The notes beneath the pieces are model-generated. The model saw only the letters and a program-made list of their open reading frames with translations, was not told where the DNA came from and searched no databases. A DNA stretch of 33,816 nucleotides, taken from IMG/VR virus record IMGVR_UViG_2850761752_000005; one strand, written 5' to 3'. The DNA comes from a virus (taxonomy: Duplodnaviria; Heunggongvirae; Uroviricota; Caudoviricetes). Each line of letters starts with the position of its first letter. Positions within the stretch are counted from its first letter, which is position 1. Of this stretch, positions 935 through 28,969 are shown one piece after another. Both the position numbers and the translations under genes were made by a program.

Positions 935-2620
935 GTGAATATAAACGTCGCCGAATTGTTAAATGGGAATTACATTCTGTTATTATTTGTGGTCCTCGCG
1001 CTTGGGCTATGTCTCGGAAAGTTACGACTTGGTTCGATCCAACTGGGTAATTCCATTGGCGTTTTAGTCGTATCGCTGTTATTAGGCCAACAACATTTCA
1101 GCATTAACACCGATGCGCTTAATCTTGGCTTTATGCTGTTTATTTTCTGCGTCGGGGTCGAAGCCGGACCGAACTTTTTTTCCATTTTTTTTCGCGATGG
1201 GAAAAATTACCTAATGTTAGCACTGGTGATGGTTGGCAGTGCGCTGGTGATCGCCTTAGGGTTAGGTAAGCTGTTTGGCTGGGATATTGGCCTGACGGCC
1301 GGTATGTTAGCAGGCTCTATGACGTCGACACCGGTTCTGGTCGGTGCTGGCGATACACTGCGTCATTCCGGCATGGAAAGCAGGCAGCTCTCACTGGCAC
1401 TGGATAATCTGAGCCTCGGGTATGCCTTAACCTATTTAATCGGTCTGGTGAGTTTGATTGTTGGTGCGCGTTACTTGCCGAAATTGCAGCATCAGGACTT
1501 ACAGACCAGCGCCCAGCAAATCGCCCGCGAACGTGGCCTGGACACTGATGCCAACCGTAAGGTTTATTTACCGGTGATCCGCGCCTATCGCGTCGGCCCG
1601 GAGCTGGTGGCCTGGACCGACGGCAAAAATCTGCGTGAACTGGGTATTTATCGACAAACCGGCTGCTACATTGAACGTATTCGACGTAACGGGATTCTGG
1701 CAAATCCAGACGGTGATGCCGTGCTACAAATGGGCGATGAAATAGCGTTGGTAGGCTATCCCGACGCCCATGCCCGACTCGATCCCAGCTTCCGTAACGG
1801 TAAAGAAGTTTTCGATCGTGACCTTCTCGACATGCGTATCGTCACTGAAGAAGTGGTCGTTAAAAACCATAACGCTGTAGGTAAACGTCTCGCACAACTG
1901 AAGTTGACCGATCACGGTTGCTTCCTTAACCGCGTCATTCGTAGCCAGATTGAGATGCCGATAGATGACAACGTCGTGCTTAACAAAGGTGACGTTTTAC
2001 AAGTCAGCGGTGATGCCCGTCGCGTAAAAACCATCGCCGATCGCATCGGCTTTATCTCGATTCACAGCCAGGTCACTGACCTGCTGGCATTTTGCGCCTT
2101 CTTTGTTATTGGGCTGATGATCGGGATGATCACCTTCCAGTTCAGCACATTCAGTTTCGGCATGGGGAACGCTGCCGGGTTGTTATTCGCCGGAATTATG
2201 CTGGGCTTTATGCGTGCTAACCACCCGACCTTCGGTTACATTCCGCAAGGTGCATTAAGCATGGTGAAAGAGTTCGGCTTGATGGTGTTTATGGCAGGCG
2301 TTGGTCTGAGCGCCGGTAGCGGTATTAATAACGGCCTGGGCGCGATTGGCGGTCAGATGTTGATTGCCGGATTAATTGTCAGTCTTGTGCCCGTGGTTAT
2401 CTGTTTCTTGTTCGGTGCTTATGTATTGCGAATGAACCGCGCACTGTTGTTCGGCGCAATGATGGGCGCACGCACCTGCGCGCCGGCAATGGAGATCATC
2501 AGTGATACAGCTCACAGTAACATCCCTGCGCTGGGCTATGCGGGCACCTACGCAATCGCCAACGTCCTGCTGACGCTGGCAGGGACAATCATCGTCATGG
2601 TATGGCCAGGATTAGGATAA
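935..2620 (+). CDS. ybjL: putative transport protein YbjL (AAE-family membrane transporter)
   Basis: 561-aa ORF with GTG start; hydrophobic N- and C-terminal halves around a soluble central region; matches recalled YbjL length and sequence. Confidence 0.85.
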
Positions 2621-10143: not shown

Positions 10144-10710
10144 TCAGGGCGATTCATTGCTCTCATTCGCCGGAAATTTTCTATAAATGGTAGAAACGCC
10201 CACATCAAAAATCAGTGCAATACGCTGTCTTGATTCTCCGGCCTCGAGTAAACGTCCAATCTGTGCCCACTGTTCGGTGGTCAACTTAGGACGGCGTCCA
10301 CCTACTCTGCCTTTGGCACGAGCTGCAGCCAGCCCTGCTCTGGTACGTTCAACTATCAGTTCACGTTCCATTTCAGCCAGAGCCCCCATGACGTGAAAAA
10401 AGAAACGGCCCATTGGGGTACTGGTATCAATACTGTCAGTCAGGCTTCGGAAATTCACACCACGCTGGCGCAACTCTTCTATCAGCGTAACAAGATGCCG
10501 CATACTGCGTCCCAGTCTGTCCAGCTTCCAGACAACCAGCGTGTCTCCTGCCGATAGTGTCCTGAGCAGTTTTTTAAGCCCCGGTCTGTCGGGCTTAGTG
10601 CCACTGATTTTATCCTCAAAAATCCGCTCACATCCCGCGCAGTTCAGTGCATTACGTTGCAAATCGGTGTTCTGGTCATTTGTTGACACGCGTACATAGC
10701 CAATAAGCAT
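10144..10710 (-). CDS. serine DNA invertase (Hin/Gin/Pin/Cin family)
   Basis: 188 aa from ATG at 10710; GYVRVSTNDQ catalytic-serine motif at the N-terminus and a C-terminal HTH; the ORF track extends upstream of this start. Confidence 0.85.
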   Translation of the reverse strand: MLIGYVRVSTNDQNTDLQRNALNCAGCERIFEDKISGTKPDRPGLKKLLRTLSAGDTLVVWKLDRLGRSMRHLVTLIEELRQRGVNFRSLTDSIDTSTPMGRFFFHVMGALAEMERELIVERTRAGLAAARAKGRVGGRRPKLTTEQWAQIGRLLEAGESRQRIALIFDVGVSTIYRKFPANESNESP

Positions 10711-10721
10711 GATCAATCCCC

Positions 10722-10747
10722 TGAATAAAAACCGGGGATGATGCCAG
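10722..10747. other. Candidate hix/gix-like inversion crossover site
   Basis: Half-site TGAATAAAAACC resembles the TTATCAAAAACC consensus; lies 12 bp from the invertase start, exactly where the tail-fibre segment reading frame opens (10729). Confidence 0.4.
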
Positions 10748-11127
10748 TTAGCCATTATCTCTGCATTTTCTTAAACGTTGGTTTGGGAGAATTATCTCTG
10801 GCTGGCACTGCATCGGGTGTCATTGGCCTGAATGGGTATGTAACGATTCCGTTAATTATTTCAGGTTCCCGGAGAACACTGATTATTCAGTGGGGGCAGG
10901 CGAGATTTGGTGGGTCTGGTGGTGAAGATGCAGGATATCTTAATGATTTTCCTTTTGCCTTTCCGTCAGCATGTTATGGGATGATAGTTAGTCATGTGGG
11001 GCATACACCTTCAGGCGCAGGAATCCTGTCGGCTTCTGCAATTACATCAAATCAGTTCCGCGGTTTTTCAAGCATAGCGACTGCTGCAAATGCTGTATTA
11101 GGTCGTTATATCGCTATAGGGGTTTAA
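10738..11127 (+). CDS. orphan tail-fibre C-terminal variable segment (Hv'-like), inverted relative to the late operon
   Basis: 129-aa Gly/Ser-rich ORF; frame is open from 10729 at the crossover site; immediately followed by a tail-fibre assembly gene. Confidence 0.5.
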   Translation: MMPVSHYLCIFLNVGLGELSLAGTASGVIGLNGYVTIPLIISGSRRTLIIQWGQARFGGSGGEDAGYLNDFPFAFPSACYGMIVSHVGHTPSGAGILSASAITSNQFRGFSSIATAANAVLGRYIAIGV

Positions 11128-11128
11128 T

Positions 11129-11566
11129 ATGTTTTATAGTCCATCTTTAAACATTTTTGTGAATCCTGCGCTTAAGGATGATTACATTAATGCAAATTCA
11201 TGGCCAGATGATGCTCTGGCTGTCAGTGATGATGTTTATAATGAATTTGCAATCAATACGCCCCCAGATGACAAAATTCGTGTTGCAGGAAAAAATGGAT
11301 TACCCACATGGGCACTAATACCTCCACCATCATATGAAGAACTTATTCAACAGGCAGAATCAGAAAGGCAATTATTGCTTAATCAGGCCAACGAATACAT
11401 GAACAGTAAACAATGGCCCGGTAAAGCCGCTATTGGTCGTCTGAAAGGTGAGGAACTGGCGCAATATAATTTGTGGCTGGATTATCTGGACGCACTGGAA
11501 CTGATTGATACCTCCAGTGCTCCAGATATTGAATGGCCTACGCCTCCGGCAGTTCAGGCCAGATGA
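11129..11566 (+). CDS. tail fibre assembly protein (Tfa/gpG-like)
   Basis: 145-aa ORF ending in the DIEWPTPP motif typical of Tfa proteins. Confidence 0.7.
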   Translation: MFYSPSLNIFVNPALKDDYINANSWPDDALAVSDDVYNEFAINTPPDDKIRVAGKNGLPTWALIPPPSYEELIQQAESERQLLLNQANEYMNSKQWPGKAAIGRLKGEELAQYNLWLDYLDALELIDTSSAPDIEWPTPPAVQAR

Positions 11567-11652
11567 CATCCGGCGCGGTGCTGGTATCTGTTGCCGCCAC
11601 CGCGTCAATGTAATCCAACACGGCGTTAAGTCGGGTGGGTAATGACTCCAAC

Positions 11653-12156
11653 TTACTGATAGTGTTTTATGTTCAGATAATGCCCGATGACCTTGTCATG
11701 CAGCTCCACCGATTTTGAGAACGACAGTGACTTCCGTCCCAGCCTTGCCAGATGTTGTCTCAGATTCAGATTATGTCGCTCAATGCGCTGAGTGTAACGC
11801 TTGCTGATAACGTGCAGCTTTCCCTTCAGGCGTGATTCATACAGCGGCCAGCCATCCGTCATCCATACCACGACCTCAAAGGCCGACAGCAGGCTCAGAA
11901 GACGCTCCAGTGTGGCCAGAGTGCGTTCACCGAAGACGTGCGCCACAACCGTCCTCCGTATCCTGTCATACGCGTAAAACAGCCAGCGCTGACGTGATTT
12001 AGCACCGACGTAGCCCCACTGTTCGTCCATTTCAGCGCAGACAATCACATCACTGCCCGGTTGTATGCGCGAGGTTACCGACTGCGGCCTGAGTTTTTTA
12101 AGTGACGTAAAACCGTGTTGAGGCCAACGCCCATAATGCGTGCACTGGCGCGACAT
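11653..12156 (-). CDS. insB: IS1 InsB
   Basis: 167-aa ORF matching recalled InsB; overlaps the insA 3' end. Confidence 0.95.
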
Positions 12157-12350
12157 CCGACGCCATTCATGGCCATATCAATGATTTTCTGGTGCGTACC
12201 GGGCTGAGAGGCGGTGTAAGTGAACTGTAGTTGCCATGTTTTACGGCAATGAGAGCAGAGATAGCGCTGATGTCCGGCAGTGCTTTTGCCGTTACGCACC
12301 ACGCCTTCAGTAGCGGAGCAGGAAGGACATCTGATGGAAATGGAAGCCAC
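12075..12350 (-). CDS. insA: IS1 InsA
   Basis: 91-aa ORF matching recalled InsA. Confidence 0.95.
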
Positions 12351-12428
12351 GCAAGCACCTTAAAATCACCATCATACACTAAATCAGTAAGTTGGCAGCA
12401 TTACCACTCAATTGAAAACAAATAAAAA

Positions 12429-12872
12429 TCAAGTTAGGTTTTTAATGAACATTCTTTCAATTAACTCAATAGATTGGACATTAAAACCTAATAACTGCCT
12501 TTTCGCATAGATGGTATAAATACCTTTTCGACTGACGCGATCACTCAAGCCGTAATGGTGAATACGGGCAATGCGCTGCACCCTACCTTCAAACTGTACG
12601 CTGGCAGAATCGGCGCTGGCTGCAGTTTTCAGGTATTTTGTGGTGCGCAGCTTTGTAAACATCTGACGTTTGATGCACCCCTTTTTGCTGCGTGCTGTTA
12701 CCCTGCGCGGCTCATAACTGCTGCCATCAGGATTGCGCTGCATCCTGATGTTCTGCTGCTGTGTCCGGCGCAGTTCCTGCGCCAGCTGGCGCATCATGCG
12801 GCTTCTTGCGGCTGGCTCCAGATTCGCCAATAATGCACTCAGCCAGTCGTCCACCTTCTGCAATTCAGCCAC
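12429..12872 (-). CDS. S: tail completion protein gpS-like
   Basis: 147-aa ORF (P2 S is 150 aa); GTG start overlaps the R stop; last late gene before the IS1 junction. Confidence 0.7.
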   Translation of the reverse strand: MAELQKVDDWLSALLANLEPAARSRMMRQLAQELRRTQQQNIRMQRNPDGSSYEPRRVTARSKKGCIKRQMFTKLRTTKYLKTAASADSASVQFEGRVQRIARIHHYGLSDRVSRKGIYTIYAKRQLLGFNVQSIELIERMFIKNLT

Positions 12873-18375: not shown

Positions 18376-20142
18376 ATGAACACCACACTGACACCCGCAG
18401 ATCTCGATCCCCGTCGGCAGGCCATGCTGCTGTACTTTCAGGGATACCGCGTAGCCCGCATTGCTGAAATGCTGGGCGAGAAAGTTGCAACCGTTCACAG
18501 CTGGAAAAAACGCGACAAGTGGGGTGACTATGGGCCTCTGGATCAGATGCAGCTCACCACCGCCGCACGCTACTGCCAGCTCATCATGAAGGAGCACAAA
18601 GAAGGGAAAGATTTCAAAGAGATTGACCTGCTGGCGCGCCAGTCTGAGCGCCACGCGCGGATCGGCAAGTTTAACAATGGCGGCAACGAAGCCGACTTAA
18701 ACCCTAACGTCGCCAACCGCAACAAAGGCCCACGCCGTCAGCCTGAAAAGAATGTTTTCACCGATGACCAGATTGAGAAGCTGGAAAAAATTTTCCATTC
18801 CTCCATGTTCAACTACCAGCGCCACTGGTGGGAAGCCGGAAAAACCAACCGCATCCGCAACCTGCTGAAGTCACGCCAGATCGGCGCGACCTTCTATTTT
18901 GCCCGTGAAGCCCTGATTGACGCCCTGCTTACCGGACGTAACCAGATTTTCCTTTCTGCCAGTAAGGCACAGGCCCACGTCTTCAAACAGTACATCATCG
19001 ACTTTGCCAAAGAAGTGGAGGTGGAGCTGAAAGGCGATCCGATGGTGCTTCCCAACGGGGCCACACTGTATTTCCTCGGCACCAATGCCCGCACTGCCCA
19101 GAGTTATCACGGTAACCTGTATCTGGATGAATATTTCTGGATACCGAAATTTCAGGAGCTACGCAAAGTGGCTTCCGGTATGGCTATTCACAAGAAATGG
19201 CGGCAGACCTATTTTTCCACACCATCCAGTCTGACCCACAGTGCTTATCCGTTCTGGTCCGGTGCGCTGTTCAACCGTGGGCGCAACAAAGCTGACAAGG
19301 TGGACATCGACCTGTCCCACAGCAATCTGGCCCCCGGCCGGCTGTGCGCAGACGGGCAATACCGCCAGATAGTCACCGTGGAAGATGCGGTGCGCGGCGC
19401 CTGTAACCTGTTCGACCTTGACCAGTTGCGCATGGAGTACAGCCCTGACGAATACCAGAACCTGCTGATGTGCGAGTTCGTGGACGATCTCGCGTCCGTG
19501 TTCCCGCTCAGCGAATTGCAGGCGTGCATGGTGGACAGCTGGGAAGTCTGGACCGACTTTCATGCACTGGCCCTGCGCCCGTTTGGCTGGCGCGAAGTGT
19601 GGATCGGTTATGACCCGGCAAAAGGTACGCAGAACGGCGACAGCGCCGGATGCGTGGTGGTGGCACCGCCAGCCGTGCCAGGCGGTAAGTTCCGCATTCT
19701 TGAGCGTCACCAGTGGCGCGGAATGGACTTTCGCGCCCAGGCTGACGCCATCAAAAAACTGACTGAACAGTACAACGTGACCTATATCGGCATCGACTCA
19801 ACCGGCGTTGGTCACGGGGTTTACGAGAACGTGAAAGCGTTTTTTCCTGCCGTCCGGGAGTTTGTCTACAACCCCAACGTTAAAAACGCCCTGGTACTCA
19901 AGGCCTACGACATTATCAGCCACCGCCGTCTTGAGTTTGACGCCGGGCACACCGACATTGCGCAGTCATTCATGGCAATCCGTCGCGCCACCACCGCCAG
20001 CGGCAACCGCCCGACCTATGAAGCCAGCCGCAGCGAAGAAGCCAGCCATGCCGATCTGGCCTGGGCAACAATGCACGCACTGTTTAACGAACCGCTGCAG
20101 GGCGAGTCCGCCAATACCAGCAATATTGTGGAGATTTTTTGA
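18376..20142 (+). CDS. P: terminase large (ATPase) subunit gpP-like
   Basis: 588-aa ORF (P2 P is 590 aa); stop overlaps the Q start (ATGA). Confidence 0.9.
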   Translation: MNTTLTPADLDPRRQAMLLYFQGYRVARIAEMLGEKVATVHSWKKRDKWGDYGPLDQMQLTTAARYCQLIMKEHKEGKDFKEIDLLARQSERHARIGKFNNGGNEADLNPNVANRNKGPRRQPEKNVFTDDQIEKLEKIFHSSMFNYQRHWWEAGKTNRIRNLLKSRQIGATFYFAREALIDALLTGRNQIFLSASKAQAHVFKQYIIDFAKEVEVELKGDPMVLPNGATLYFLGTNARTAQSYHGNLYLDEYFWIPKFQELRKVASGMAIHKKWRQTYFSTPSSLTHSAYPFWSGALFNRGRNKADKVDIDLSHSNLAPGRLCADGQYRQIVTVEDAVRGACNLFDLDQLRMEYSPDEYQNLLMCEFVDDLASVFPLSELQACMVDSWEVWTDFHALALRPFGWREVWIGYDPAKGTQNGDSAGCVVVAPPAVPGGKFRILERHQWRGMDFRAQADAIKKLTEQYNVTYIGIDSTGVGHGVYENVKAFFPAVREFVYNPNVKNALVLKAYDIISHRRLEFDAGHTDIAQSFMAIRRATTASGNRPTYEASRSEEASHADLAWATMHALFNEPLQGESANTSNIVEIF

Positions 20143-21171
20143 TGGGAAAGAGTAAGAAGAACCGCGCTGCGGCGACGAAACAGACCCAGCATAAAAACCA
20201 GACTTCAGCCGAAGCATTCAGCTTCGGCGATCCCGTTCCGGTTCTGGACCGCCGTGAACTACTGGACTATGTGGAATGCGTACAGACAGATCGCTGGTAT
20301 GAGCCGCCAGTGAGTTTTGACGGACTGGCGCGCACCTTCCGCGCCGCCGTGCATCACAGTTCACCAATTGCGGTGAAATGCAACATTCTGATCAGTACCT
20401 ACATCCCTCACCCGCTGCTCAGCCAGCAGGCTTTTTCACGTTTTGTGCAGGATTATCTGGTATTTGGTAACGCTTACCTGGAGAAACGCACAAACCGGTT
20501 CGGAGAGGTCATCGCTCTTGAGCCTGCTCTGGCAAAATACACCCGACGCGGATTAGACCTGGATACCTACTGGTTTGTGCAATACGGCATGACCACGCAG
20601 CCGTATCAGTTCACGAAAGGAAGCATCTTTCATCTGATGGAACCGGACATCAACCAAGAGATCTACGGCCTGCCAGGTTACCTTTCTGCCATTCCGTCAG
20701 CCCTGCTCAACGAGTCCGCCACGCTGTTCCGCCGATAGTATTACATTAACGGCAGTCATGCAGGCTTCATCATGTACATGACCGATGCCGCGCAAAACCA
20801 GGAGGATGTGAACAACCTCCGCAATGCGATGAAAAGCGCCAAAGGACCAGGTAACTTCCGCAATCTGTTTATGTACTCGCCTAACGGCAAAAAGGACGGG
20901 CTTCAGATCATCCCGTTGTCAGAAGTCGCGGCGAAGGATGAGTTTCTGAACATCAAGAACGTGAGCCGGGATGACATGATGGCGGCGCATCGTGTGCCAC
21001 CGCAAATGATGGGGATTATGCCTAATAATGTCGGGGGTTTGGGGATGTGGAGAAGGCGAGCCTGGAGTTTGTACGTAACGAGTTAATACCGTTACAAAAA
21101 AGAATGATGGAAATAAATAAATTGGTAAGTGAGAACATTGTTAAATTTGATAGTTATAAACTAGCTACTTA
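20139..21171 (+). pseudogene. Q: portal protein gpQ-like, disrupted by an in-frame amber codon and a frameshift
   Basis: In-frame TAG at 20736..20738 with the same frame continuing to 21086; the final 40 or so codons (...DVEKASLEFVRNELIPLQ...) are in another frame, rejoined by adding one G to the G5 run at 21033..21037. Total span is about 344 codons, as in P2 Q. Confidence 0.75.
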
Positions 21172-21277
21172 ACGTAATCACTAAATGAGGTTCTTTAACA
21201 CAGCTAAAAAATTTATTAATAGCCAGCAGTTTTATGAATTTCTTCAGCGTGCAGATACACGCTGAAGATGCAAAAAA

Positions 21278-22159
21278 TCATATGAGACGACCGTCTGGAC
21301 TTCTGTTACCTAAATGTAATTCACAGAGTATCCACCTAATCACATCAGGTCGAATTAACCCAGCTACAAAAACCGAATTCCAATTATTTTTACCTTTATG
21401 TTTTTCATCCAACAGCAACAACTCGCGAGTCAACAACTCATATACATCGCTATAAGTAGAAAGACTCTTATTCAGTCCTCTAATAACAAGCTCAGGATAT
21501 AAGTAAAACGACTCCCATTGTTCAGACAAATACCCCTTAATATTATTCTTGATAACAACATTATCAAGATGATACTTAACATTGTTATATTCTGGTGACA
21601 TTGGGTCAATTATGATTTTTACATCAATTGTAGGTGTTCGCCCTAATTTAGAAAAATTAGCACATATTAATCTTTGTTTTAATATATTATCAAAATATGG
21701 ATGCAGCATCCGATGGCCTGCAGAATTAGCTATAGTAGTACTTTTGAAAGTATTACATTTGCAAGCAGGAACCAAATTCTTAGTGAATAAAGAAAATTCT
21801 GGATAGTTTTCCTTGGGTAAAACATGATCCAAAGTCCCGCTATGCATTGAACCACACATTGGACATAGAGAGTTAGAATTAGCTGCTCTTATATCATCAA
21901 TTATAGATAAACACTTTGCGGGATTGTTATAATAATATCTCAAAGCTTCAGCAATATTGTTACTCAATACGCCACAAGAATTGACATTAAGATACCCTTT
22001 ATTCTTTATGTACGATCTATATGCATTAAGTATAAATGTATCCTGTCCATTCAGAACAGAATGATGTTTTAATCTCTTATTTGCAGATAGTTTTTTAAAT
22101 GCAGAATAATCTTTAAAAACAGGTCTTTTTAATTTATTCATTTCAATTGCCCATTTCAT
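21278..22159 (-). CDS. HNH endonuclease-domain protein (cargo gene 2)
   Basis: 293-aa ORF in an AT-rich region; motif CPMCG...GTLDHVLP...NLVPACKCN (CxxC, DH, N, CxC); ATG overlaps the ATPase stop by 17 nt. Confidence 0.7.
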   Translation of the reverse strand: MKWAIEMNKLKRPVFKDYSAFKKLSANKRLKHHSVLNGQDTFILNAYRSYIKNKGYLNVNSCGVLSNNIAEALRYYYNNPAKCLSIIDDIRAANSNSLCPMCGSMHSGTLDHVLPKENYPEFSLFTKNLVPACKCNTFKSTTIANSAGHRMLHPYFDNILKQRLICANFSKLGRTPTIDVKIIIDPMSPEYNNVKYHLDNVVIKNNIKGYLSEQWESFYLYPELVIRGLNKSLSTYSDVYELLTRELLLLDEKHKGKNNWNSVFVAGLIRPDVIRWILCELHLGNRSPDGRLI

Positions 22160-23791
22160 TTCTCAACGCAGTTAATACATTAAGTGATAAGTCCTCGCTA
22201 TATTTAGATTCAACATCATCCCAAGACATATTCTTTGCAATTATATTGTTTTTTACTTTATTTAAAATTTGAGTTGGTTCACTCTCACCGAAAACAAAAT
22301 ATGAGATATTTCCTATATTCGCCCCAAAAGTACTCAATCTCGGTTTTTCGCTAACAATTACCCCATCATCTCGTCTTCTGAGTATTGTCACTTGCTCCTT
22401 AAAAACCTCCCGAACAAGATAAACCGAATGCGTTGCTATGATAGCTGAAGAGCCTGTCTTTCTAATAAATTATCAAGCAATGCCATAAATTTATTAATAA
22501 ATGAAGGATGGAGATGTGTTTCTGGCTCATCTATTAATAGAAGAGTCCCATTCTCAATATACAAACAGACTTGTACACAAAACTTAATAAACGATATTTC
22601 CCCACTACTCAAAGGGTAACATTTATTTTCAATAAGCCTCAAAGGCTCGCCAGAGAGAATAATTTCAGAATATAATGATAGTCTAGATTCTTCGCCTCGA
22701 GAATTAAGCTCATTTAATTTAACAAATGGTGAATTTTCACCGCCACATTTGATTACTAAATCGTTGTTACTATTTAGAACACTCAGTGCATCAACAAATA
22801 TATTCCACCTTTGATTATAGCCGATAGCGTCGTTACTCCTCGCTAGTTGCACTATTAAATCATTCAAGTTTAATTTGGATTTTGATTCACGATTTAAAGT
22901 CAATCTTTTGTACCATATCAATGATTTTATTCTTTTATCGGTTGGAAATGAACACTTACTTTCATTTGTTGGAGAAAAAGCAATGAGCCTACTAATTTGA
23001 ATTCGTTCTTCAATGCTCACACCGTTAGAATCAACTACAGCCACCAAATTATCCTTTCCTTTAATCGCAGCCAATGCGATTTCTCTAAGCGTTTGGCTTT
23101 TTCCTACACCATTCTCGCCTATAATTATGGAAATTCTTTTTGGTAAATCATGCTCGTGATCAAAATTAAAAACATAAGATACATCTTCTTCATTAACTTT
23201 ATTCGAATAGCTAATCTTGATGTGCTGTGATAAATTACCCAACTCCTCATATTGAATACCGGAAAGAACTGTTCCTGCATTTTTGAAAGTAAAATACGAC
23301 TCAGACTCTCTAATGAAAGATTTATTAAAGATATCAGAAGAGATTGCTTTTTTCCTCAAATTCTCTGCACTAGCGTCACTTTTCTTAGAAACAACATCAT
23401 TAATGAAATTTAATATATATTTGGATTCATTCACCCCAAAAAATCTTACTAGTCTTCGATAATTATTCATATCCTGAAGCATGACAAAATAATCATTAAA
23501 CCCCTCATCCTTTAAATTAGATTCTTCCTTTTTCTTCACTCGCCTTATCAGTTCTGCTTTTCCATTTCGTTCCTCCTCTGAATTCAAAAAACCAATATAA
23601 CCATTCAGTGAAATTATATCCTTACACTCTTTTTTATTAAAAATAGATATTTCGACTCTACTCAAATATCCAAAATCATTCCAATCGCTTCTTGATGGGA
23701 CTATTTTTATATAATTACCAGAATCAGATATCTGTTGATTATTTGTAATTAAAAAATATAAACTATAATTTTTATTTTTCTTGACTAACAT
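22143..23791 (-). CDS. OLD/ABC-type ATPase with an unrecognised N-terminal domain (cargo gene 1), apparent single-base frameshift
   Basis: Walker A GENGVGKS near residue 225, Walker B LLLIDEPETHLHP and H-loop IIATHS. Read as two ORFs (22436..23791 and 22143..22391); a 1-nt gain within about 22430..22470 gives one protein of about 549 aa. Sample block 22441..22500 has 16 G+C of 60. Confidence 0.7.
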
Positions 23792-23833
23792 TATTACCCT
23801 CTCACTTCATTAGTGATGATTTATTTTGGAATT

Positions 23834-23861
23834 ATTTTACACACTTATACCTAGCGCGCAA
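23834..23861 (-). promoter_or_regulatory. Candidate sigma70 promoter for the ATPase-HNH operon
   Basis: Minus strand TTGCGC, 16-bp spacer, TAAAAT, about 45 nt upstream of the ATPase ATG. Pattern match only. Confidence 0.25.
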
Positions 23862-23879
23862 TCGTATCCCCGCCACGCC
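23861..23879. other. Candidate cos site (cohesive-end region)
   Basis: Minus strand GGCGTGGCGGGGATACGAT; first 13 nt match the recalled P2/186 cohesive-end sequence GGCG(A/T)GGCGGGGA. Confidence 0.4.
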
Positions 23880-23927
23880 TGCCCGCTTTATGTAGAGGTT
23901 TTCATGCACCTGCATGATCTACGCAAA

Positions 23928-23948
23928 AGCCCGCCAGTTCTGGCGGGC
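23928..23948 (-). terminator. Putative terminator downstream of the tum/dinI-like cassette
   Basis: Inverted repeat GCCCGCCAG / CTGGCGGGC with a short loop, followed on the minus strand by TTTTG. Confidence 0.35.
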
Positions 23949-24083
23949 CTTAGCAAAAACGATCCTCAAACGATCATGCGATCTCATGCGGCATAGACAT
24001 GCACTACAGAGCTAACGCCTCGCAAGGGCTCGTTGTTCAACCTTGCTGACGCCAGAAGCTAGTTCAGACGCCAGCAACGTTTC

Positions 24084-24317
24084 TTAATGCAGCCAGCTGT
24101 CGTCTTCCCACACCTTCTGCATAATTTTCATCACTTGTTTTCTTTCTTCGTCCAGTTGCAATCCAGTAAGTTCCACACCGTTAGAGCTACCTTTGCGGAT
24201 ACGAATTACCGTTTTGGGATACAGAGGGCGCAGATTGCGGTAAAGCTCGGATTCAAGAGCGTCCAGGGTAGACTGGCTAATCTTCTGCTCTTTATCGATC
24301 ATTATTTCAATGCGCAT
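24084..24317 (-). CDS. DinI-family protein
   Basis: 77 aa from ATG at 24317, preceded by GAGGTGA; MRIEIMIDK...VMKIMQKVWEDDSWL resembles E. coli DinI. Confidence 0.75.
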   Translation of the reverse strand: MRIEIMIDKEQKISQSTLDALESELYRNLRPLYPKTVIRIRKGSSNGVELTGLQLDEERKQVMKIMQKVWEDDSWLH

Positions 24318-24327
24318 AAAAGTCACC

Positions 24328-24516
24328 TCAGCTGATGACATCCATTGAGCGGTTGTATTCGTGGGTTCTGATTTTTGCCATGAGTTCATCAGTCAATTCA
24401 GAAACCCACTGCAGAGCCAGCCCCTTCTCTTCATCACTACACTCACTAGCCGCTACAAGCTTAAGAAAAAAATCAATGCGCTGGAGCTTCAAAGACTCCA
24501 AAAAATAGTCCTGCAT
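24328..24516 (-). CDS. small SOS-regulated protein, candidate Tum-like antirepressor N-terminal module
   Basis: 62 aa from ATG at 24516, preceded by AGGAGG; LexA box 44 to 59 nt upstream; stop lies 10 nt before the DinI-like ATG. Confidence 0.55.
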   Translation of the reverse strand: MQDYFLESLKLQRIDFFLKLVAASECSDEEKGLALQWVSELTDELMAKIRTHEYNRSMDVIS

Positions 24517-24557
24517 CTTTCCTCCTATGACACCACACGCAATACTGTATGCATAAC

Positions 24558-24577
24558 CACTGTTTATATTTACAGTA
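24558..24577 (-). promoter_or_regulatory. LexA (SOS) box overlapping the cassette promoter
   Basis: Minus strand TACTGTAAATATAAACAGTG, a full CTGT-N8-ACAG match; TATACT -10-like hexamer overlaps its 5' edge. Confidence 0.7.
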
Positions 24578-24669
24578 TATAATAATCTTACTGATGTAAA
24601 ACGTTTTTTTACGTTCATCAGCCTGATATGCCTGGTATTATTAAGAGCACGAATTGTTAACCCGCGTAA

Positions 24670-27084
24670 TTAATACAGGTTCCGCCACTGATCATCTTCC
24701 TGCAAACGCTGGTTCCGATAGAAGATACGCAGGCCTGCTCCTGACGGAATACTGCCTCCGCGAAGGAGTAAATCGACCTCTTTCTCGCTGCCATCAAATC
24801 CTCTGGACTTCAGCTCATACACGAGCTGCAGTCGCTGATGGTCTGTAATTCGCTGTTTGTAGTCTTTACGCCGTTTCGGTTTCACCAGGCGTAACCTTGC
24901 TGCCAGTTCCCGGCGCTCTTTTTTGCTCATACTGTGCAGGTAATCGTGCAACTCCTTGTCATCCATGCTGGTAATGTCCGTTCTGGGGTTCCCATCAGCT
25001 GATTTATCTTTCTCCTGTTGGTTCAAATTTTCAGCAAGGAGACAGTTATTGCCACGAGTCCAAGGGGCGCAAGCGCCCTGGTCGGCTGCCGCCTCCTGAA
25101 CGTCAACGGCTTTACGAACCATTTTCCACTTCACTGCATGAGTGCAGATCTTGCCTTCTGCAATGGGTGACCAGATGCCATAAATACGAATACCGTGATC
25201 GCCATAGGCGGTCGGCTCTTCATTGATTTCATAAGCGGTTCTGATCAAGTGATATTTGCGAGGAACCAGCACGCCGCCCTGCCTCATAATGTAGGTGGCA
25301 AAACAGCCAGCATCAGCAGCAGCCAGGATGGCATCAAGGCGCGGGTTATCCAGTACCGGCGCACCTGCTTTTTTGTCACCCTGCTGCCTTGCCGCCTGAC
25401 CAGCCAACAACCGCAGTTCACGGTAAGCCTGACGCCCTGGAATACCAAAGAAGCGGAATTGCTGAACACGATGCAGAGACGCCCAGGGATTAACGTATTC
25501 AGCGTTATCACGCAGGGATTTACCCGTTTCCTTGCTGATCTCGCCAGCCAGACCACGCCCGTCAATGTTCTTACTGATGTATTTCGCGATGTAGCTTGTC
25601 GGCGTTCCTTTGCGCGGGTTTATCAGCTCAGATTTAAAGCGTGGACCAGTGTTATTACCCAGTTCCTCGCGGTCTTCACGGATGGCAAACTTACGCAACA
25701 ATGCAGTAATGGCGCGGCGGTCTTTTTTGCGCATAAAACACAACAGGTGCCAGTGAACTGTACCGTCATGATGCGGCTCAGCCACCCGCACGCCATACCA
25801 GCGCAACCCGGCTTTGTGCATCGCCTTACGAAATGCAGCAAACATGCCGACCAGATAATCGCTGCTTTGTCTTACCGTCGCATTTGTCCAGGTTGGGTTT
25901 GGTCTGCCGTTATTGAGCGTGGAATGGAAACGTGACGGACAGGTAATGGTGTAGAAAACGGCGCAGTCACCGCGCATTTCCGCGATAAGCTCCAGACCTT
26001 TAACACAGGCCATCATCTCATTGCGGCGGTGCGCCGGGTTGCTGCTGCTGGCGTTTACCACGTCTTCCATATCCAGCGTGTCGCCCTCTTCGTTCACCAG
26101 TTCATGAGAACGGAAAAACTCCAATGACTTGCGGCGCTGCTCACGTTTATGCATCACGGCTTCATAGCTGACATAGGGAGATGCTTTTTTGCTGACCAGG
26201 CAGACAGCACGCAACTGCTCTTCCCGCCATTCGCAACGCATTTTCCATAATTTCCGGTACCACCAGTCGGCGCACAACATACGCGCCAGCGAACCCGGAA
26301 TGAGTTCATAGGGCACGGGTTTACGGCGGTTTCTTTTCCGACGGAGTTGCTCAAACGCAGGCGGGATGACATCCAGACGCAGGGTTTCCGCTGCCACCTT
26401 TTCCCATGTCTTGCGGATTTCTTCTGGCTTAACGTCATCGGTGGCATACAAATCACCACAAGCTGCATCAAGGCACATGCTCATATGCGCAGCGACAAGG
26501 GTAGACAGGCGTTTCACCTGATCCTGACTCATTTCAGGCAGAATCAGCAGGCCGTCCAGCCCTACATGGCTTGCCATAAAACGAAAAGATGCAGATAGCT
26601 GGCTGTCGCGTACATGCTCCAGTCGTTCCAGACATGGCTTAATCGTCTCACGTAAATAGCGGGAATAAGCCTTTGGCCTGCCCAGGCTGCTGAAGTATTC
26701 AATACGTTGCATCAGCGGCTTGCTGATATGGGAAGGCTGGGCGTTGACGTCCGCCAGAATGACCATATCCGGATTAAAACGCTGCTGCTCATGCGCCAGC
26801 TTTGCCCGGCTAATGAGCTTATCCTGCTCCATTTCGTGCTGGACAGGATCACGTGATTCATAAAAAAAATAACGCTCCCAGACCTGATCACTCAGTGCCT
26901 CGCGGCGCAACTGTTCCTGCTCGTTATCGGCAGCGTACAGAGTGATCAGGTTTGAAAGCGCAGAAACCGGCGCAACTTCCGCCGGGTCCAGATAAGGGTT
27001 AATGGCCTTTTTCGGGCTGTTCCATGAGAACGCTGCGGCAGCCTCGTTAAAGCCGCAGCAGTTGTTCATATCGGCATGGCTCAT
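24670..27084 (-). CDS. A: replication initiation protein gpA-like (rolling-circle initiator)
   Basis: 804-aa ORF (P2 A is 761 aa); ATG overlaps the dam' stop. Confidence 0.85.
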
Positions 27085-27720
27085 GCACGTACTCCGTACA
27101 CGGCAGAACTATCCACGCCACGCGAATAATCAAATCCCACCCAGCAGCGCGGCCCGGAAACAGCAATGATTTCTGTTGCTGATTTACCCTCGCCAGCTGC
27201 CACACCGATGCTGCGTTTTACCTTGATATAGTGGTGAGTAAAATTGCGATACAGCGAACGGATCAGGGATGTGTCACTGTTAGAAACAATGACCGGATGT
27301 CCTTCTGATGACCGATGTTCAAGAACGGATGCTAGGTGATACTGGTCATCTTCAGTGAAACCATCAGTGTGATAGCCGGAAAACGTACCGTCATACGGTG
27401 GATCGCAATACACCACATCCCCCGCCTTCAACATCGCCAGCGTTTCATCAAAGCTGGCGCAGATAAACGTTGCTCGCTGGGCTTTTTCTGCAAATGCGCG
27501 AATTTCTTTTTCAGGGAAATACGGATTTTTATAATTGCCGTAGGGAATGTTGAAATGCCCGCTCTTGTTATAGCGACATAAACCACGGTAACCGTGACGA
27601 TTGAGATACAGGAAATATACCGCTTTCATGAAATCAGTAATTTCAGTTGAGTAATTAAACTCCTGCCTTATGTTGTAATAAGCCACCTCCCTGTTTGCGA
27701 TCTCAAATAAAACTCTGGCG
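27081..27720 (-). pseudogene. Dam-like N6-adenine DNA methyltransferase, 5'-truncated by IS911
   Basis: DPPY motif and a strong match to recalled E. coli Dam from about residue 75 onward; frame is open right up to the IS911 end at 27721; the N-terminal AdoMet-binding region is missing. Confidence 0.75.
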
Positions 27721-27728
27721 TGAAGTGG

Positions 27729-28897
<1,169 letters not shown>

Positions 28898-28969
28898 TGG
28901 AGCACCTGTGTTGTTCTGAGGTGAGCATATCACCTCTGTTCAGGTGGCCAAATTCAGTGTGCCACTTCA

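What the first reader, a model, noticed from the sequence alone, without database searches (positions are those of the whole stretch)
21278..23791. AT-rich ATPase + HNH nuclease operon between the portal gene and cos: candidate anti-phage system
Seen in sequence: two translationally coupled minus-strand genes sit between the portal gene (ends 21171) and the cos-like sequence (23861..23879), in DNA that is far more AT-rich than the flanking phage genes. Gene 1 has Walker A GENGVGKS, Walker B LLLIDEPETHLHP and H-loop IIATHS; gene 2 has an HNH motif. Established knowledge: the A-to-Q interval spanning cos is a recognised defence-gene hotspot in P2-like phages (old/tin in P2), and ATPase + HNH is the Septu (PtuA/PtuB) architecture. 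Inference: this is a prophage-borne defence module, possibly a divergent Septu relative or an unclassified family.
Basis: partly seen in the sequence, partly recalled or inferred. Interest (0 to 1): 0.85.

Follow-up and report, generated by a model that had tools for sequence, protein, structure and literature searches.

The report
Septu-like ATPase–HNH cargo in P2 prophage
A defective P2-like prophage carries, between its portal gene and cos, a two-gene ATPase plus HNH-nuclease module that is a distant relative of the Septu anti-phage system and of phage lambda's long-unexplained ea59–ea31 genes; it was already catalogued as an untested candidate, and this copy has a one-base frameshift.

Summary
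Two co-oriented, translationally coupled minus-strand genes (ATPase 23791..22143, HNH 22141..21278) lie in a 2.7-kb AT-rich segment (GC 0.27–0.36; flanks 0.52–0.60) between portal gene Q and cos.

The ATPase is an ABC-type NTPase with an extra ~190-aa N-terminal domain. In this window a 1-bp deletion in a T-run (22459–22461) breaks it. The corrected protein is identical to an allele seen on 694 contigs.

Lambda ea59–ea31 is a homologous adjacent pair (hhalign 99.5% and 98%).

Rousset et al. 2022 list these sequences as P2-hotspot system #155 (12 occurrences). I did not find it in their table of tested systems.

Best reading: a Septu-like defence or conflict module carried as phage cargo. No member of this clade has been tested, as far as I found.

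Novelty is modest: a catalogued, uncharacterised variant of a known kind. Interest 0.35.

The parts
21106..23841 (.). AT-rich variable cargo segment between the conserved part of portal gene Q and cos
   Evidence: GC 0.27-0.36 against 0.52-0.60 in the flanks. Homology to phage 813R9's portal gene (89%) ends at window 21105. About 1,200 E. coli genomes match only from window ~23842 onward; 3 of 5,426 hold the cargo.
22143..23791 (-). ABC-type ATPase gene (PtuA/Ea59-like; 549 aa once frame-corrected). In this window it splits into a 451-aa ORF (23791..22436) and an out-of-frame 3' part (to 22143).
   Evidence: PADLOC PDC-M01A E 3e-55 over 27-539; PtuA1 model PDLC00282 E 1e-31. Pfam AAA_21 and AAA_15. 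Foldseek top hits are PtuA chains. The corrected protein is identical to an allele on 694 contigs.
22459..22461 (-). Frameshift site: T3 run on the plus strand, T4 in all intact copies
   Evidence: Seven other copies have T4. The 451-aa truncated product is on a single contig, CP026731.1.
23096..23119 (-). Walker A GENGVGKS (residues 225-232)
   Evidence: G225, N227, G228, G230, K231 and S232 are invariant in 35 homologues.
22598..22612 (-). ABC signature motif LSSGE (residues 394-398)
   Evidence: Invariant in the family alignment. This motif marks an ABC/SMC-type ATPase, not a STAND ATPase.
22505..22543 (-). Walker B / D-loop LLLIDEPETHLHP (residues 417-429)
   Evidence: D421, E422, P423, E424, H426, L427, H428 and P429 are invariant.
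22425..22436 (-). H-loop ATHS, downstream of the frameshift and so out of frame with the Walker motifs in this window
   Evidence: T454, H455 and S456 are invariant.
23224..23791 (-). Family-specific N-terminal domain of the ATPase (residues ~1-189; conserved WNDF, YR and SFxR motifs); function unknown
   Evidence: Conserved through to lambda Ea59. No Pfam or PDB sequence match. The AF2 model shows a beta-rich part followed by helices.
21278..22141 (-). HNH nuclease gene (PtuB/Ea31-like, 287 aa; alternative start 22159 gives 293 aa), intact
21701..21865 (-). HNH catalytic core: C93-x2-C96 ... D105-H106 ... N122 ... C127-x-C129-N130 ... H147
   Evidence: All these residues are invariant in 36 homologues.
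23861..23879 (-). cos-like cohesive-end sequence GGCGTGGCGGGGATACGAT
   Evidence: Aligns to P2 cosL positions 1-19 at 15 of 19, plus the conserved TGCGCGC.
23923..23954 (-). Terminator-like hairpin (11-bp GC stem followed by UUUUG) between the dinI-like gene and cos; it would insulate the operon from upstream transcription
   Evidence: dG -27.6 kcal/mol, z -5.2. Inverted repeat I6.
21241..21268 (.). 12-bp hairpin between the convergent HNH and portal genes; no U-tract on either strand
   Evidence: dG -20.8 kcal/mol, z -5.0.
20139..21172 (+). Portal gene Q (left border of the slot), broken by a nonsense codon at 20736 and a 1-bp deletion at 21033

Best explanation
This is a self-contained two-gene conflict module of the Septu type, carried as exchangeable cargo in the slot between cos and portal gene Q of a P2-like prophage. 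It belongs to the Ea59/Ea31-like clade, which PADLOC lists as candidate family PDC-M01.

Shown here:
- Gene 1 encodes an ABC-type ATPase with intact Walker A, signature, Walker B/D-loop and H-loop residues, plus a family-specific ~190-aa N-terminal domain.
- Gene 2 encodes a 287-aa protein with a complete zinc-finger HNH core. Its predicted fold resembles PtuB over about 180 residues, well beyond the HNH core.
- The two genes are adjacent, co-oriented and translationally coupled in every homologous locus examined.

Inferred by analogy with characterised PtuAB systems: the ATPase oligomerises and binds the nuclease through its C-terminal region; ATP binding keeps the nuclease quiet; a phage-derived cue, perhaps read by the N-terminal domain, releases it; the nuclease then cuts DNA (nicking or ssDNA) or a tRNA, halting phage replication, probably at a cost to the host cell.

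In this window the ATPase frame is broken by a 1-bp homopolymer contraction, so this copy is either inactive or mis-assembled. The same allele is intact on hundreds of Shigella and E. coli contigs.
For: Family assignment:
- PADLOC PDC-M01A and PDC-M01B match full length at E 3e-55 and 1e-33. PtuA1 models come next, the best at 1e-31 over the full length.
- Pfam AAA_21 and AAA_15 match the ATPase.
- The best NCBIfam hits after TIGR04435 are PtuA (NF041760) and the PtuB family (TIGR02646).

Fold:
- ATPase model (pLDDT 76.8): top Foldseek hits are PtuA of retrons Ec83, I-A and Ec78 and of E. coli Septu, followed by OLD.

Pairing:
- An ATPase homologue sits immediately upstream of the HNH homologue in all 12 loci that extend far enough, from 100% down to 25% identity.
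- Many hits from the two protein searches come from contigs of identical length, and the Serratia, Providencia and Edwardsiella hits carry the same species name.

Context:
- The slot is variable; 3 of 5,426 E. coli genomes hold this cargo, and phage 813R9 holds different cargo there.
- The hotspot is published (PMC9122126).
- In Stenotrophomonas the pair sits in an island with AbiJ, a Peptidase_U49 (Lit-type) gene and a SduA_C (Shedu-type) gene.
- On one viral contig it lies next to an ABC-3C system; on another, next to a lambda-type integrase.
- In lambda the homologous pair lies in the non-essential b region.

Mechanistic precedents:
[quoted passage not shown] Maintenance: the intact allele occurs on 694 contigs although the prophage lineage carries a portal nonsense mutation.
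Against: - I found no experimental test of any member of this clade. It does not appear in the table of systems Rousset et al. evaluated, and PADLOC lists it only as a candidate.
- Sequence similarity to characterised PtuA and PtuB is marginal. NF041760 scores 41 bits against a cut-off of 500. TIGR02646 scores 13 bits against 52. A family profile finds no PtuB in the PDB.
- Fold-search TM-scores are low, at 0.3-0.4.
- No promoter was identified upstream of the operon, so expression in the lysogen is unproven.
- In lambda the homologous genes lie in the pL-transcribed b region (my recollection). That would fit a role in lytic growth rather than in protecting a lysogen.
- This copy is frameshifted.
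Confidence: 0.68

Rival explanations
1. A phage-serving nuclease of the lytic cycle. Like lambda Ea59/Ea31, the pair would be made during lytic growth and act for the phage, for example in competition with co-infecting phages, host takeover, or DNA processing. It would not be a lysogen-expressed shield for the host.
For: The pair is homologous to lambda ea59-ea31 and shares PHROG 8066, annotated 'unknown function'. The operon lies on the same strand as, and downstream of, the early replication operon, which ends with gene A. No separate promoter was found. From memory, unverified here: lambda Ea31 and Ea59 were reported to co-purify as an endonuclease (Benchimol, Lucko and Becker, J Biol Chem 1982).
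Against: A strong terminator hairpin separates the operon from the upstream genes. Homologues also occur outside prophages: between housekeeping genes in Providencia and in a Stenotrophomonas defence island. The intact operon persists on hundreds of contigs in a lineage whose portal gene carries a nonsense codon, so it cannot be serving particle production there.
Confidence: 0.15
2. A selfish addiction (toxin-antitoxin-like) cassette. Its nuclease toxicity, restrained by the ATPase, would stabilise the prophage or island without a dedicated anti-phage role.
For: Pfam names AAA_21 after the AbiEii type IV toxin. Retron-free PtuAB is toxic when expressed (PMC12640716). The pair is retained in a decaying prophage.
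Against: If the ATPase were the antidote, a frameshifted ATPase beside an intact HNH should be lethal. In retron Ec78, though, toxicity needs both activities (PMC12819146). TA-like behaviour and abortive-infection defence do not exclude each other.
Confidence: 0.07
3. An NLR-like (STAND NTPase) sensor with a nuclease effector. This is how Rousset et al. annotated system #155.
For: Their Table S5B comment, with an NB-ARC label among the domain calls. Weak Pfam P-loop hits to NACHT and nSTAND models.
Against: Those hits cover only the P-loop (residues 214-262) and fall below the cut-offs (NACHT 16.6 bits against 26.7). The protein has an invariant ABC signature LSSGE, a D-loop and an H-loop. Its structural neighbours are PtuA, OLD, UvrA and ABC transporters, not STAND proteins.
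Confidence: 0.03
4. An HNH accessory factor of the packaging machinery. Some cos phages need an HNH protein for terminase cleavage, and this gene lies beside cos, portal and terminase.
For: Position next to cos, Q and P. That such factors exist in HK97-like phages is established knowledge recalled from memory.
Against: P2 itself has only 167 bp between cos and Q. Only 3 of about 1,200 E. coli genomes that carry this P2-type flank have the pair. The pair also occurs in non-phage contexts and is always linked to the ABC ATPase. The fold is PtuB-like rather than a minimal ~100-aa HNH.
Confidence: 0.02
5. In this genome the operon is a dead remnant. The ATPase frameshift would be real, part of the general decay of the prophage, so nothing functions here.
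For: The prophage is clearly defective. It has a portal nonsense codon shared with related contigs, IS1 in place of baseplate and tail-fibre genes, and an IS3-family element in the dam gene. The frameshift removes the H-loop and the last ~100 residues from the frame.
Against: The frameshift is private to one assembly (1 contig, against 694 for the intact allele). It is a homopolymer contraction. Three other private homopolymer contractions lie within 1.4 kb. No further mutation has accumulated: the corrected protein is 100% identical to the common allele. This pattern fits a consensus error in the assembly equally well.
Confidence: 0.4

Closest known systems
Septu (PtuA/PtuB), stand-alone: E. 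coli Septu (PDB 8EE4, 8EE7, 8EEA, 8SUX) and Septu Ec^B88
   Different: About 11-15% sequence identity. Curated PtuA and PtuB HMMs are missed. The Walker A lysine is at residue 231, against K43 in Septu Ec^B88, because of an extra ~190-aa N-terminal domain. The HNH protein is larger (287 aa against 205-234) and its catalytic His is at 106 rather than 75. No functional data exist.
Phage lambda Ea59 / Ea31 (b-region genes ea59-ea31)
   Same: An adjacent pair in the same order with overlapping genes. Ea59 aligns over 472 columns, including the N-terminal domain (hhalign 99.5%, E 6e-23). Ea31 aligns over 197 columns (98%, E 2e-13). Both ATPases fall in PHROG 8066. Both pairs match PADLOC families PDC-M01A and PDC-M01B.
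   Different: Only 22-26% identity. The two pairs match different PDC-M01 sub-models, and the HNH proteins fall in different PHROGs (18937 against 10378). The host phage type and genome position differ (lambda b region next to att/int; here the P2 cos-Q slot). Lambda's pair is non-essential and of unknown role.
PADLOC phage-defence candidate PDC-M01 (unpublished candidate family)
   Same: Both proteins give their best, full-length matches to PDC-M01A and PDC-M01B models, and the genes are adjacent.
   Different: None in architecture. The family is only a computational candidate. In the Bacillus cereus group, 41 PDC-M01 calls were duplicates of PADLOC's own Septu calls on the same proteins (PMC11811056).
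Rousset et al. 2022, P2-hotspot system #155 ('AAA_21/AAA_15/AAA_25/NB-ARC | HNH_5')
   Same: The two protein sequences printed in Table S5B match this pair: the HNH sequence is identical and the ATPase differs at residue 125 (N there, Y here) over the part stored. The system is counted 12 times among E. coli P2-like loci.
   Different: [quoted passage not shown] It does not appear in their table of evaluated systems.
Retron type I-A effectors (Ec78/Eco7 and Ec83/Eco4 PtuAB; 'type II Septu')
   Different: No reverse transcriptase gene in the variable segment, and no Rfam family (so no known retron ncRNA) there. The equivalog model NF041760 scores 41 bits against a cut-off of 500.
P2 Old / OLD-family nucleases, Gabija GajA, PARIS AriA-AriB
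   Same: An ABC ATPase (AAA_15/AAA_21) coupled to a nuclease. P2 Old occupies the same A-Q hotspot. OLD and AriA appear among the structural and profile hits.
   Different: Their nuclease is a Toprim or DUF4435 domain, not HNH. No Toprim domain is found here. P2's old lies on the other side of cos.

Membership tests
Septu (PtuA/PtuB) | Two adjacent co-oriented genes, an ATPase followed by an HNH nuclease | tested here: met
   The arrangement is conserved in 12 of 12 homologous loci.
Septu (PtuA/PtuB) | PtuA is an ABC-type ATPase (AAA_15/AAA_21) with Walker A, signature, Walker B and H-loop | tested here: met
   Pfam AAA_21 at 60.8 bits (cut-off 27) and AAA_15 at 35.3 bits (cut-off 32.1). Motifs are invariant in the family. 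In this window the H-loop is out of frame.
Septu (PtuA/PtuB) | The ATPase matches a PtuA sequence model | tested here: inconclusive
   PADLOC PtuA1 model PDLC00282 matches at E 1e-31 over the full length, but scores below PDC-M01A. NCBIfam PtuA equivalog NF041760 scores 41 bits against a cut-off of 500. PDB PtuA 8ee4 matches only at E 0.0017, in the C-terminal part.
Septu (PtuA/PtuB) | The nuclease matches a PtuB sequence model (TIGR02646 family) | tested here: not met
   TIGR02646 scores 13.1 bits against a cut-off of 52.15. There is no PtuB among PDB sequence or profile hits. No PtuB model appears in the 25 PADLOC rows shown.
Septu (PtuA/PtuB) | PtuB-like fold beyond the HNH core | tested here: met
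   [not shown]
Septu (PtuA/PtuB) | PtuA oligomer binds PtuB; the nuclease is ATP-regulated; anti-phage phenotype | not testable with these tools
   Needs biochemistry and phage assays. No multimer prediction was available.
PADLOC PDC-M01 (Ea59/Ea31-like candidate) | Adjacent genes matching PDC-M01A and PDC-M01B HMMs | tested here: met
   PDLC04242 at E 3.2e-55 (residues 27-539) and PDLC04270 at E 1.2e-33 (residues 8-270). Lambda Ea59 and Ea31 match the same families at 4e-201 and 6e-113.
Lambda Ea59/Ea31 family | Full-length homology of both proteins, including the ATPase N-terminal domain | tested here: met
   hhalign 99.5% over 472 columns and 98.0% over 197 columns. Both ATPases match phrog_8066. 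tblastn E 6e-14 and 2e-8.
STAND / NLR-like NTPase plus effector | NACHT or NB-ARC type NTPase module | tested here: not met
   Only sub-threshold P-loop matches (NACHT 16.6 bits against 26.7; nSTAND3 15.4 against 27.2). The ABC signature and H-loop are present. The structural neighbours are ABC ATPases.
OLD / Gabija / PARIS (ABC ATPase plus Toprim) | A Toprim or DUF4435 nuclease domain or partner | tested here: not met
   No Toprim or DUF4435 hit in either protein. The partner is an HNH protein.
Retron type I-A (retron-Septu) | A reverse transcriptase gene and msr/msd ncRNA beside ptuAB | tested here: not met
   The variable segment holds no long ORF other than the two genes. No Rfam family matches at E up to 1 in 20900-24700.
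Phage packaging HNH accessory | A small HNH protein conserved with the terminase/portal module across the phage group | tested here: not met
   Absent from P2 and from all but 3 of about 1,200 E. coli genomes that match the flank. Present in non-phage loci.

The most novel reading that the evidence does not exclude
The Ea59/Ea31 family is a distinct, experimentally untouched branch of Septu-type ATPase-nuclease immunity. It includes this P2-borne pair, lambda's b-region genes ea59-ea31 (function unknown for decades), and 2,503 50%-identity cluster representatives at E ≤ 1e-10. It is defined by a ~190-aa N-terminal domain with no detectable relative, which would act as the infection sensor. Temperate phages of unrelated types (P2-like, lambda, other integrase-proximal morons) would deploy it against competitors. 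If so, lambda itself has carried an unrecognised anti-phage system all along.
Probability: 0.45. Interest if true: 0.55.

Novelty: new variant of a known kind. Interest (0 to 1): 0.35.

Why it matters
If the clade is a working defence system, three things follow.

- It would add an experimentally tractable Septu variant with a new N-terminal domain, a candidate sensor. That could help explain how ATPase-nuclease systems detect infection.
- It would give a function to lambda's ea59-ea31 genes, which are routinely deleted from lambda vectors as dispensable.
- It would illustrate that cargo can sit on either side of cos in the P2 hotspot, and that the exchange junction here reaches into the 3' end of the portal gene. 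It would also show such cargo kept intact on hundreds of Shigella/E. coli contigs while the surrounding prophage decays.

For genome annotation, the pair is named only 'AAA family ATPase' and 'HNH endonuclease/hypothetical protein'. It could be labelled Septu-like (PDC-M01).

For this window the finding is largely ordinary: a previously catalogued candidate, and possibly a mis-assembled copy.

Tried and rejected
- **PDB profile search for the ATPase.** It returned generic ABC proteins (UvrA, EF3, AriA, Ec83 ATPase) through the signature and Walker B region only.
- **N-terminal domain alone.** A 13-member profile including lambda Ea59 found nothing in the PDB or Pfam.
- **Promoter scan.** No consensus sigma-70 site upstream of the ATG at 23791. 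The number of sites in the region was no higher than in shuffles.
- **Rfam.** No RNA family in 20900-24700, so no known retron ncRNA.
- **Repeat search.** No flanking direct or inverted repeats that would suggest transposition of the cargo.
- **Literature.** Searches for ea59/ea31 function found nothing beyond non-essentiality and an 'ATP-dependent endonuclease' label. The Casjens and Hendrix lambda review was not held. The E. coli Septu tested by Wang et al. has its catalytic His at 75, so it is not this clade.
- **Structure job.** The near-identical database protein P0121 was used instead.
- **Rejected readings.** NLR-like, packaging HNH, retron-associated, OLD/PARIS-type. Reasons are in the membership tests.
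Full report
**1. What is in the sequence**

On the minus strand, an ORF starts at ATG 23791, preceded by a GAGGG ribosome-binding site. It runs for 451 codons to a stop at 22436. A second frame continues to TGA at 22145..22143. One nucleotide later, an ATG at 22141 opens a 287-codon ORF that ends at 21278.

The first ORF carries Walker A GENGVGKS, the ABC signature LSSGE and Walker B/D-loop LLLIDEPETHLHP. The H-loop IIATHS lies in the continuing frame. The second gene carries CPMCGS…LDHVLP…NLVPACKCN…LHPY.

GC is 0.27–0.36 across 21000–23999 and 0.52–0.60 on both sides.

The 19-mer GGCGTGGCGGGGATACGAT (23879..23861) aligns to P2 cosL at 15 of 19 positions, followed by the conserved TGCGCGC.

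**2. The frameshift**

An E. coli chromosome (UPEC-245U, locus L001) is 99.8% identical over 12.6 kb. It has an uninterrupted 549-aa 'AAA family ATPase' and a 287-aa 'HNH endonuclease'.

Against it, the window has four 1-bp deletions, all in homopolymers. One falls in a T-run at 22459–22461 inside the ATPase.

- Seven other copies all have T4 at that site.
- The truncated 451-aa product exists on a single contig, CP026731.1.
- The frame-corrected protein is 100% identical to an allele found on 694 contigs, mostly Shigella.
- The exact HNH protein is on at least 995 contigs.

The frameshift is therefore private, recent or artefactual. I cannot tell which. I put about 0.4 on its being real.

**3. 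The host element is a decaying P2-like prophage**

The gene order is O-N-M-L…P-Q | cargo | cos | dinI-like, A, dam.

- The portal gene has an AAG→TAG nonsense codon at 20736. Two independent viral contigs share it, so it is real. It also has a private G-run deletion at 21033.
- An IS1 sits where the baseplate and tail-fibre genes should be.
- An IS3-family element splits the dam gene.

The ATPase–HNH operon is nonetheless kept intact across this lineage.

**4. Position in the hotspot**

In P2, cosL is at 1–19 and Q ends at 187. Here 2.7 kb are inserted in that gap. This is the Q side of cos, not the A side where P2 carries tin and old.

Only 3 of 5,426 complete E. coli genomes hold this cargo. 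About 1,200 match the cos–dinI flank. Phage vB_EcoM-813R9 has an unrelated gene in the same slot.

The left junction lies inside Q. Similarity to the 813R9 portal gene (89%) stops 65 nt before the stop codon.

Rousset et al. 2022 described the A–Q interval as a hotspot for defence cargo.

**5. What the proteins are**

*PADLOC.* The ATPase matches PDC-M01A at E 3e-55 over residues 27–539. The HNH matches PDC-M01B at E 1e-33 over residues 8–270. PtuA models come next, the best at 1e-31 over the full length.

*Pfam.* AAA_21 and AAA_15 match the ATPase. Nothing matches the HNH protein.

*NCBIfam.* PtuA (41 bits, cut-off 500) and the PtuB family TIGR02646 (13 bits, cut-off 52) are the nearest named families and are missed by far.

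*Family conservation.* Homologues of both proteins are spread through Proteobacteria at 38–55% identity. All catalytic residues are invariant. The HNH family has 191 50%-cluster representatives at E ≤ 1e-30 and 2,503 at E ≤ 1e-10.

*Structure.* AlphaFold models (pLDDT 81.8 and 76.8) gave two results.

- The top Foldseek hits for the ATPase are PtuA chains of retrons Ec83, I-A and Ec78 and of E. coli Septu, followed by OLD and ABC transporters.

The pair is thus PtuA/PtuB-like in fold and operon structure, but outside the curated sequence families.

**6. An unexpected relative**

tblastn against phage genomes found lambda ea59 (24.8% identity over 90% of the ATPase, E 6e-14) and the adjacent ea31 (37% over the HNH core, E 2e-8).

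Profile comparison gives 99.5% probability over 472 columns for Ea59, including the N-terminal domain. It gives 98% over 197 columns for Ea31.

Ea59 and Ea31 are themselves top hits of PDC-M01A (4e-201), PtuA1 model PDLC00282 (5e-184) and PDC-M01B (6e-113). Both ATPases belong to PHROG 8066, annotated 'unknown function'. PDC-M01 is therefore, in effect, the Ea59/Ea31 family.

The lambda genes are non-essential. I recall, but could not verify here, that Ea31 and Ea59 were purified together as an endonuclease (Benchimol et al., 1982).

**7. The pair as a unit, and its neighbours**

In all 12 loci with enough sequence, the ATPase homologue lies directly upstream of the HNH homologue. This holds from 100% down to 25% identity.

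Contexts:
- a Stenotrophomonas island with AlpA, AbiJ, a Peptidase_U49 (Lit-type) gene and a SduA_C (Shedu-type) gene;
- a bare two-gene insertion between housekeeping genes in Providencia;
- a viral contig beside a lambda-type integrase and CI repressor, and another beside an ABC-3C system.

This is the distribution of a mobile, self-sufficient accessory module. It is not that of a packaging or replication function.

**8. Mechanism (inferred)**

Characterised relatives set the model.

[quoted passage not shown] PtuB binds the PtuA C-terminal domain.
- ATP binding inhibits the nuclease.
- Substrates differ by system: plasmid nicking, ssDNA, or tRNA-Tyr.
- Septu Ec^B88 needs its Walker A/B and HNH residues and cleaves the tRNA-Tyr variable loop during infection.

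I propose the same logic here, with the family-specific N-terminal domain as a candidate sensor. That domain has conserved WNDF, YR and SFxR motifs. It has no Pfam or PDB match.

Its absence from canonical PtuA is inferred from the Walker A lysine at residue 43 in Septu Ec^B88, against 231 here.

Expression is unresolved. A strong terminator hairpin (ΔG −27.6, z −5.2) isolates the operon from the upstream genes. No consensus promoter was found in the ~130 nt before the ATG.

**9. Prior knowledge and novelty**

Table S5B of Rousset et al. 2022 lists this pair as P2-hotspot system #155. The HNH sequence is identical. The ATPase is the N125 allele, differing from this window at one residue.

[quoted passage not shown] The sequences appear only in that table, not in the table of evaluated systems.

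The NLR reading is not supported. The only STAND-type hits are sub-threshold P-loop matches, whereas the protein has an invariant ABC signature and H-loop and ABC-type structural neighbours.

PADLOC holds the family as an unpublished candidate. In the Bacillus cereus group, 41 PDC-M01 calls duplicated PADLOC's own Septu calls on the same proteins.

So this is a catalogued but uncharacterised variant of a known kind. The link to lambda ea59–ea31 did not turn up in my searches of the open literature.

**10. Verdict**

- Observation: confirmed.
- Interpretation: supported, with the defence function still inferred.
- Interest: 0.35.
- Homology to the PtuAB and Ea59/Ea31 families: about 0.95.
- Anti-phage function of the clade: about 0.65–0.7.
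- This copy being genuinely inactivated: about 0.4.

Noticed in passing
window 20139..21172: Portal gene Q is broken. An AAG→TAG nonsense codon at 20736 is shared with two independent IMG/VR contigs (L011, L015), so it is a real lineage mutation. A 1-bp G-run deletion at 21033 is private to this assembly.
   Followed up: yes
window 10144..12872: An IS1 transposase (11653..12156, minus strand) sits where the P2 baseplate and tail-fibre genes V, W, J, I and H should be. It lies between gpS (12429..12872) and a Hin-type invertase (10144..10755) that has tail-fibre C-terminal and assembly cassettes (10738..11566). The tail module looks deleted or rearranged.
   Followed up: partly
window 27081..28933: An IS3-family element (rve transposase 27729..28568; HTH_Tnp_1 28595..28933) interrupts the prophage Dam methylase gene. 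Only its C-terminal part remains, at 27081..27686.
   Followed up: partly
window 21106..21172: The last ~65 nt (~22 codons) of the portal gene are AT-rich and unrelated to the same stretch in other P2-like phages. The cargo-exchange junction therefore lies inside Q, and each cargo brings its own portal C-terminus.
   Followed up: partly
window 23923..23954 and 21241..21268: A strong terminator-like hairpin lies between the dinI-like gene and cos (ΔG −27.6, z −5.2). A 12-bp hairpin without a U-tract lies between the convergent HNH and portal genes (ΔG −20.8, z −5.0).
   Followed up: partly
[not shown]
   Followed up: no
L010 2510..4974 (lambda NC_001416 24509..26973): Lambda ea59 and ea31 are a homologous ATPase–HNH pair. 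They give top hits to PADLOC PDC-M01A/B and to a PtuA1 model. Lambda thus appears to carry a Septu-like module in its b region.
   Followed up: yes
window 23224..23791 (ATPase residues 1-189): A conserved N-terminal domain (WNDF, YR and SFxR motifs) has no Pfam or PDB sequence relative. It is shared with lambda Ea59. Canonical PtuA appears to lack it, judging from the Walker A lysine at residue 43 in Septu Ec^B88.
   Followed up: partly
window 935..2620: A 561-aa Asp-Al_Ex/TrkA_C permease gene. It looks like a host chromosomal gene next to the prophage end.
   Followed up: no
L017 3832..9061: In one viral contig a distant homologue of the pair (35% identity) lies next to an ABC-3C three-component system (SMC-like ATPase, MComp1, CTD1), forming a small defence cluster.
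   Followed up: partly
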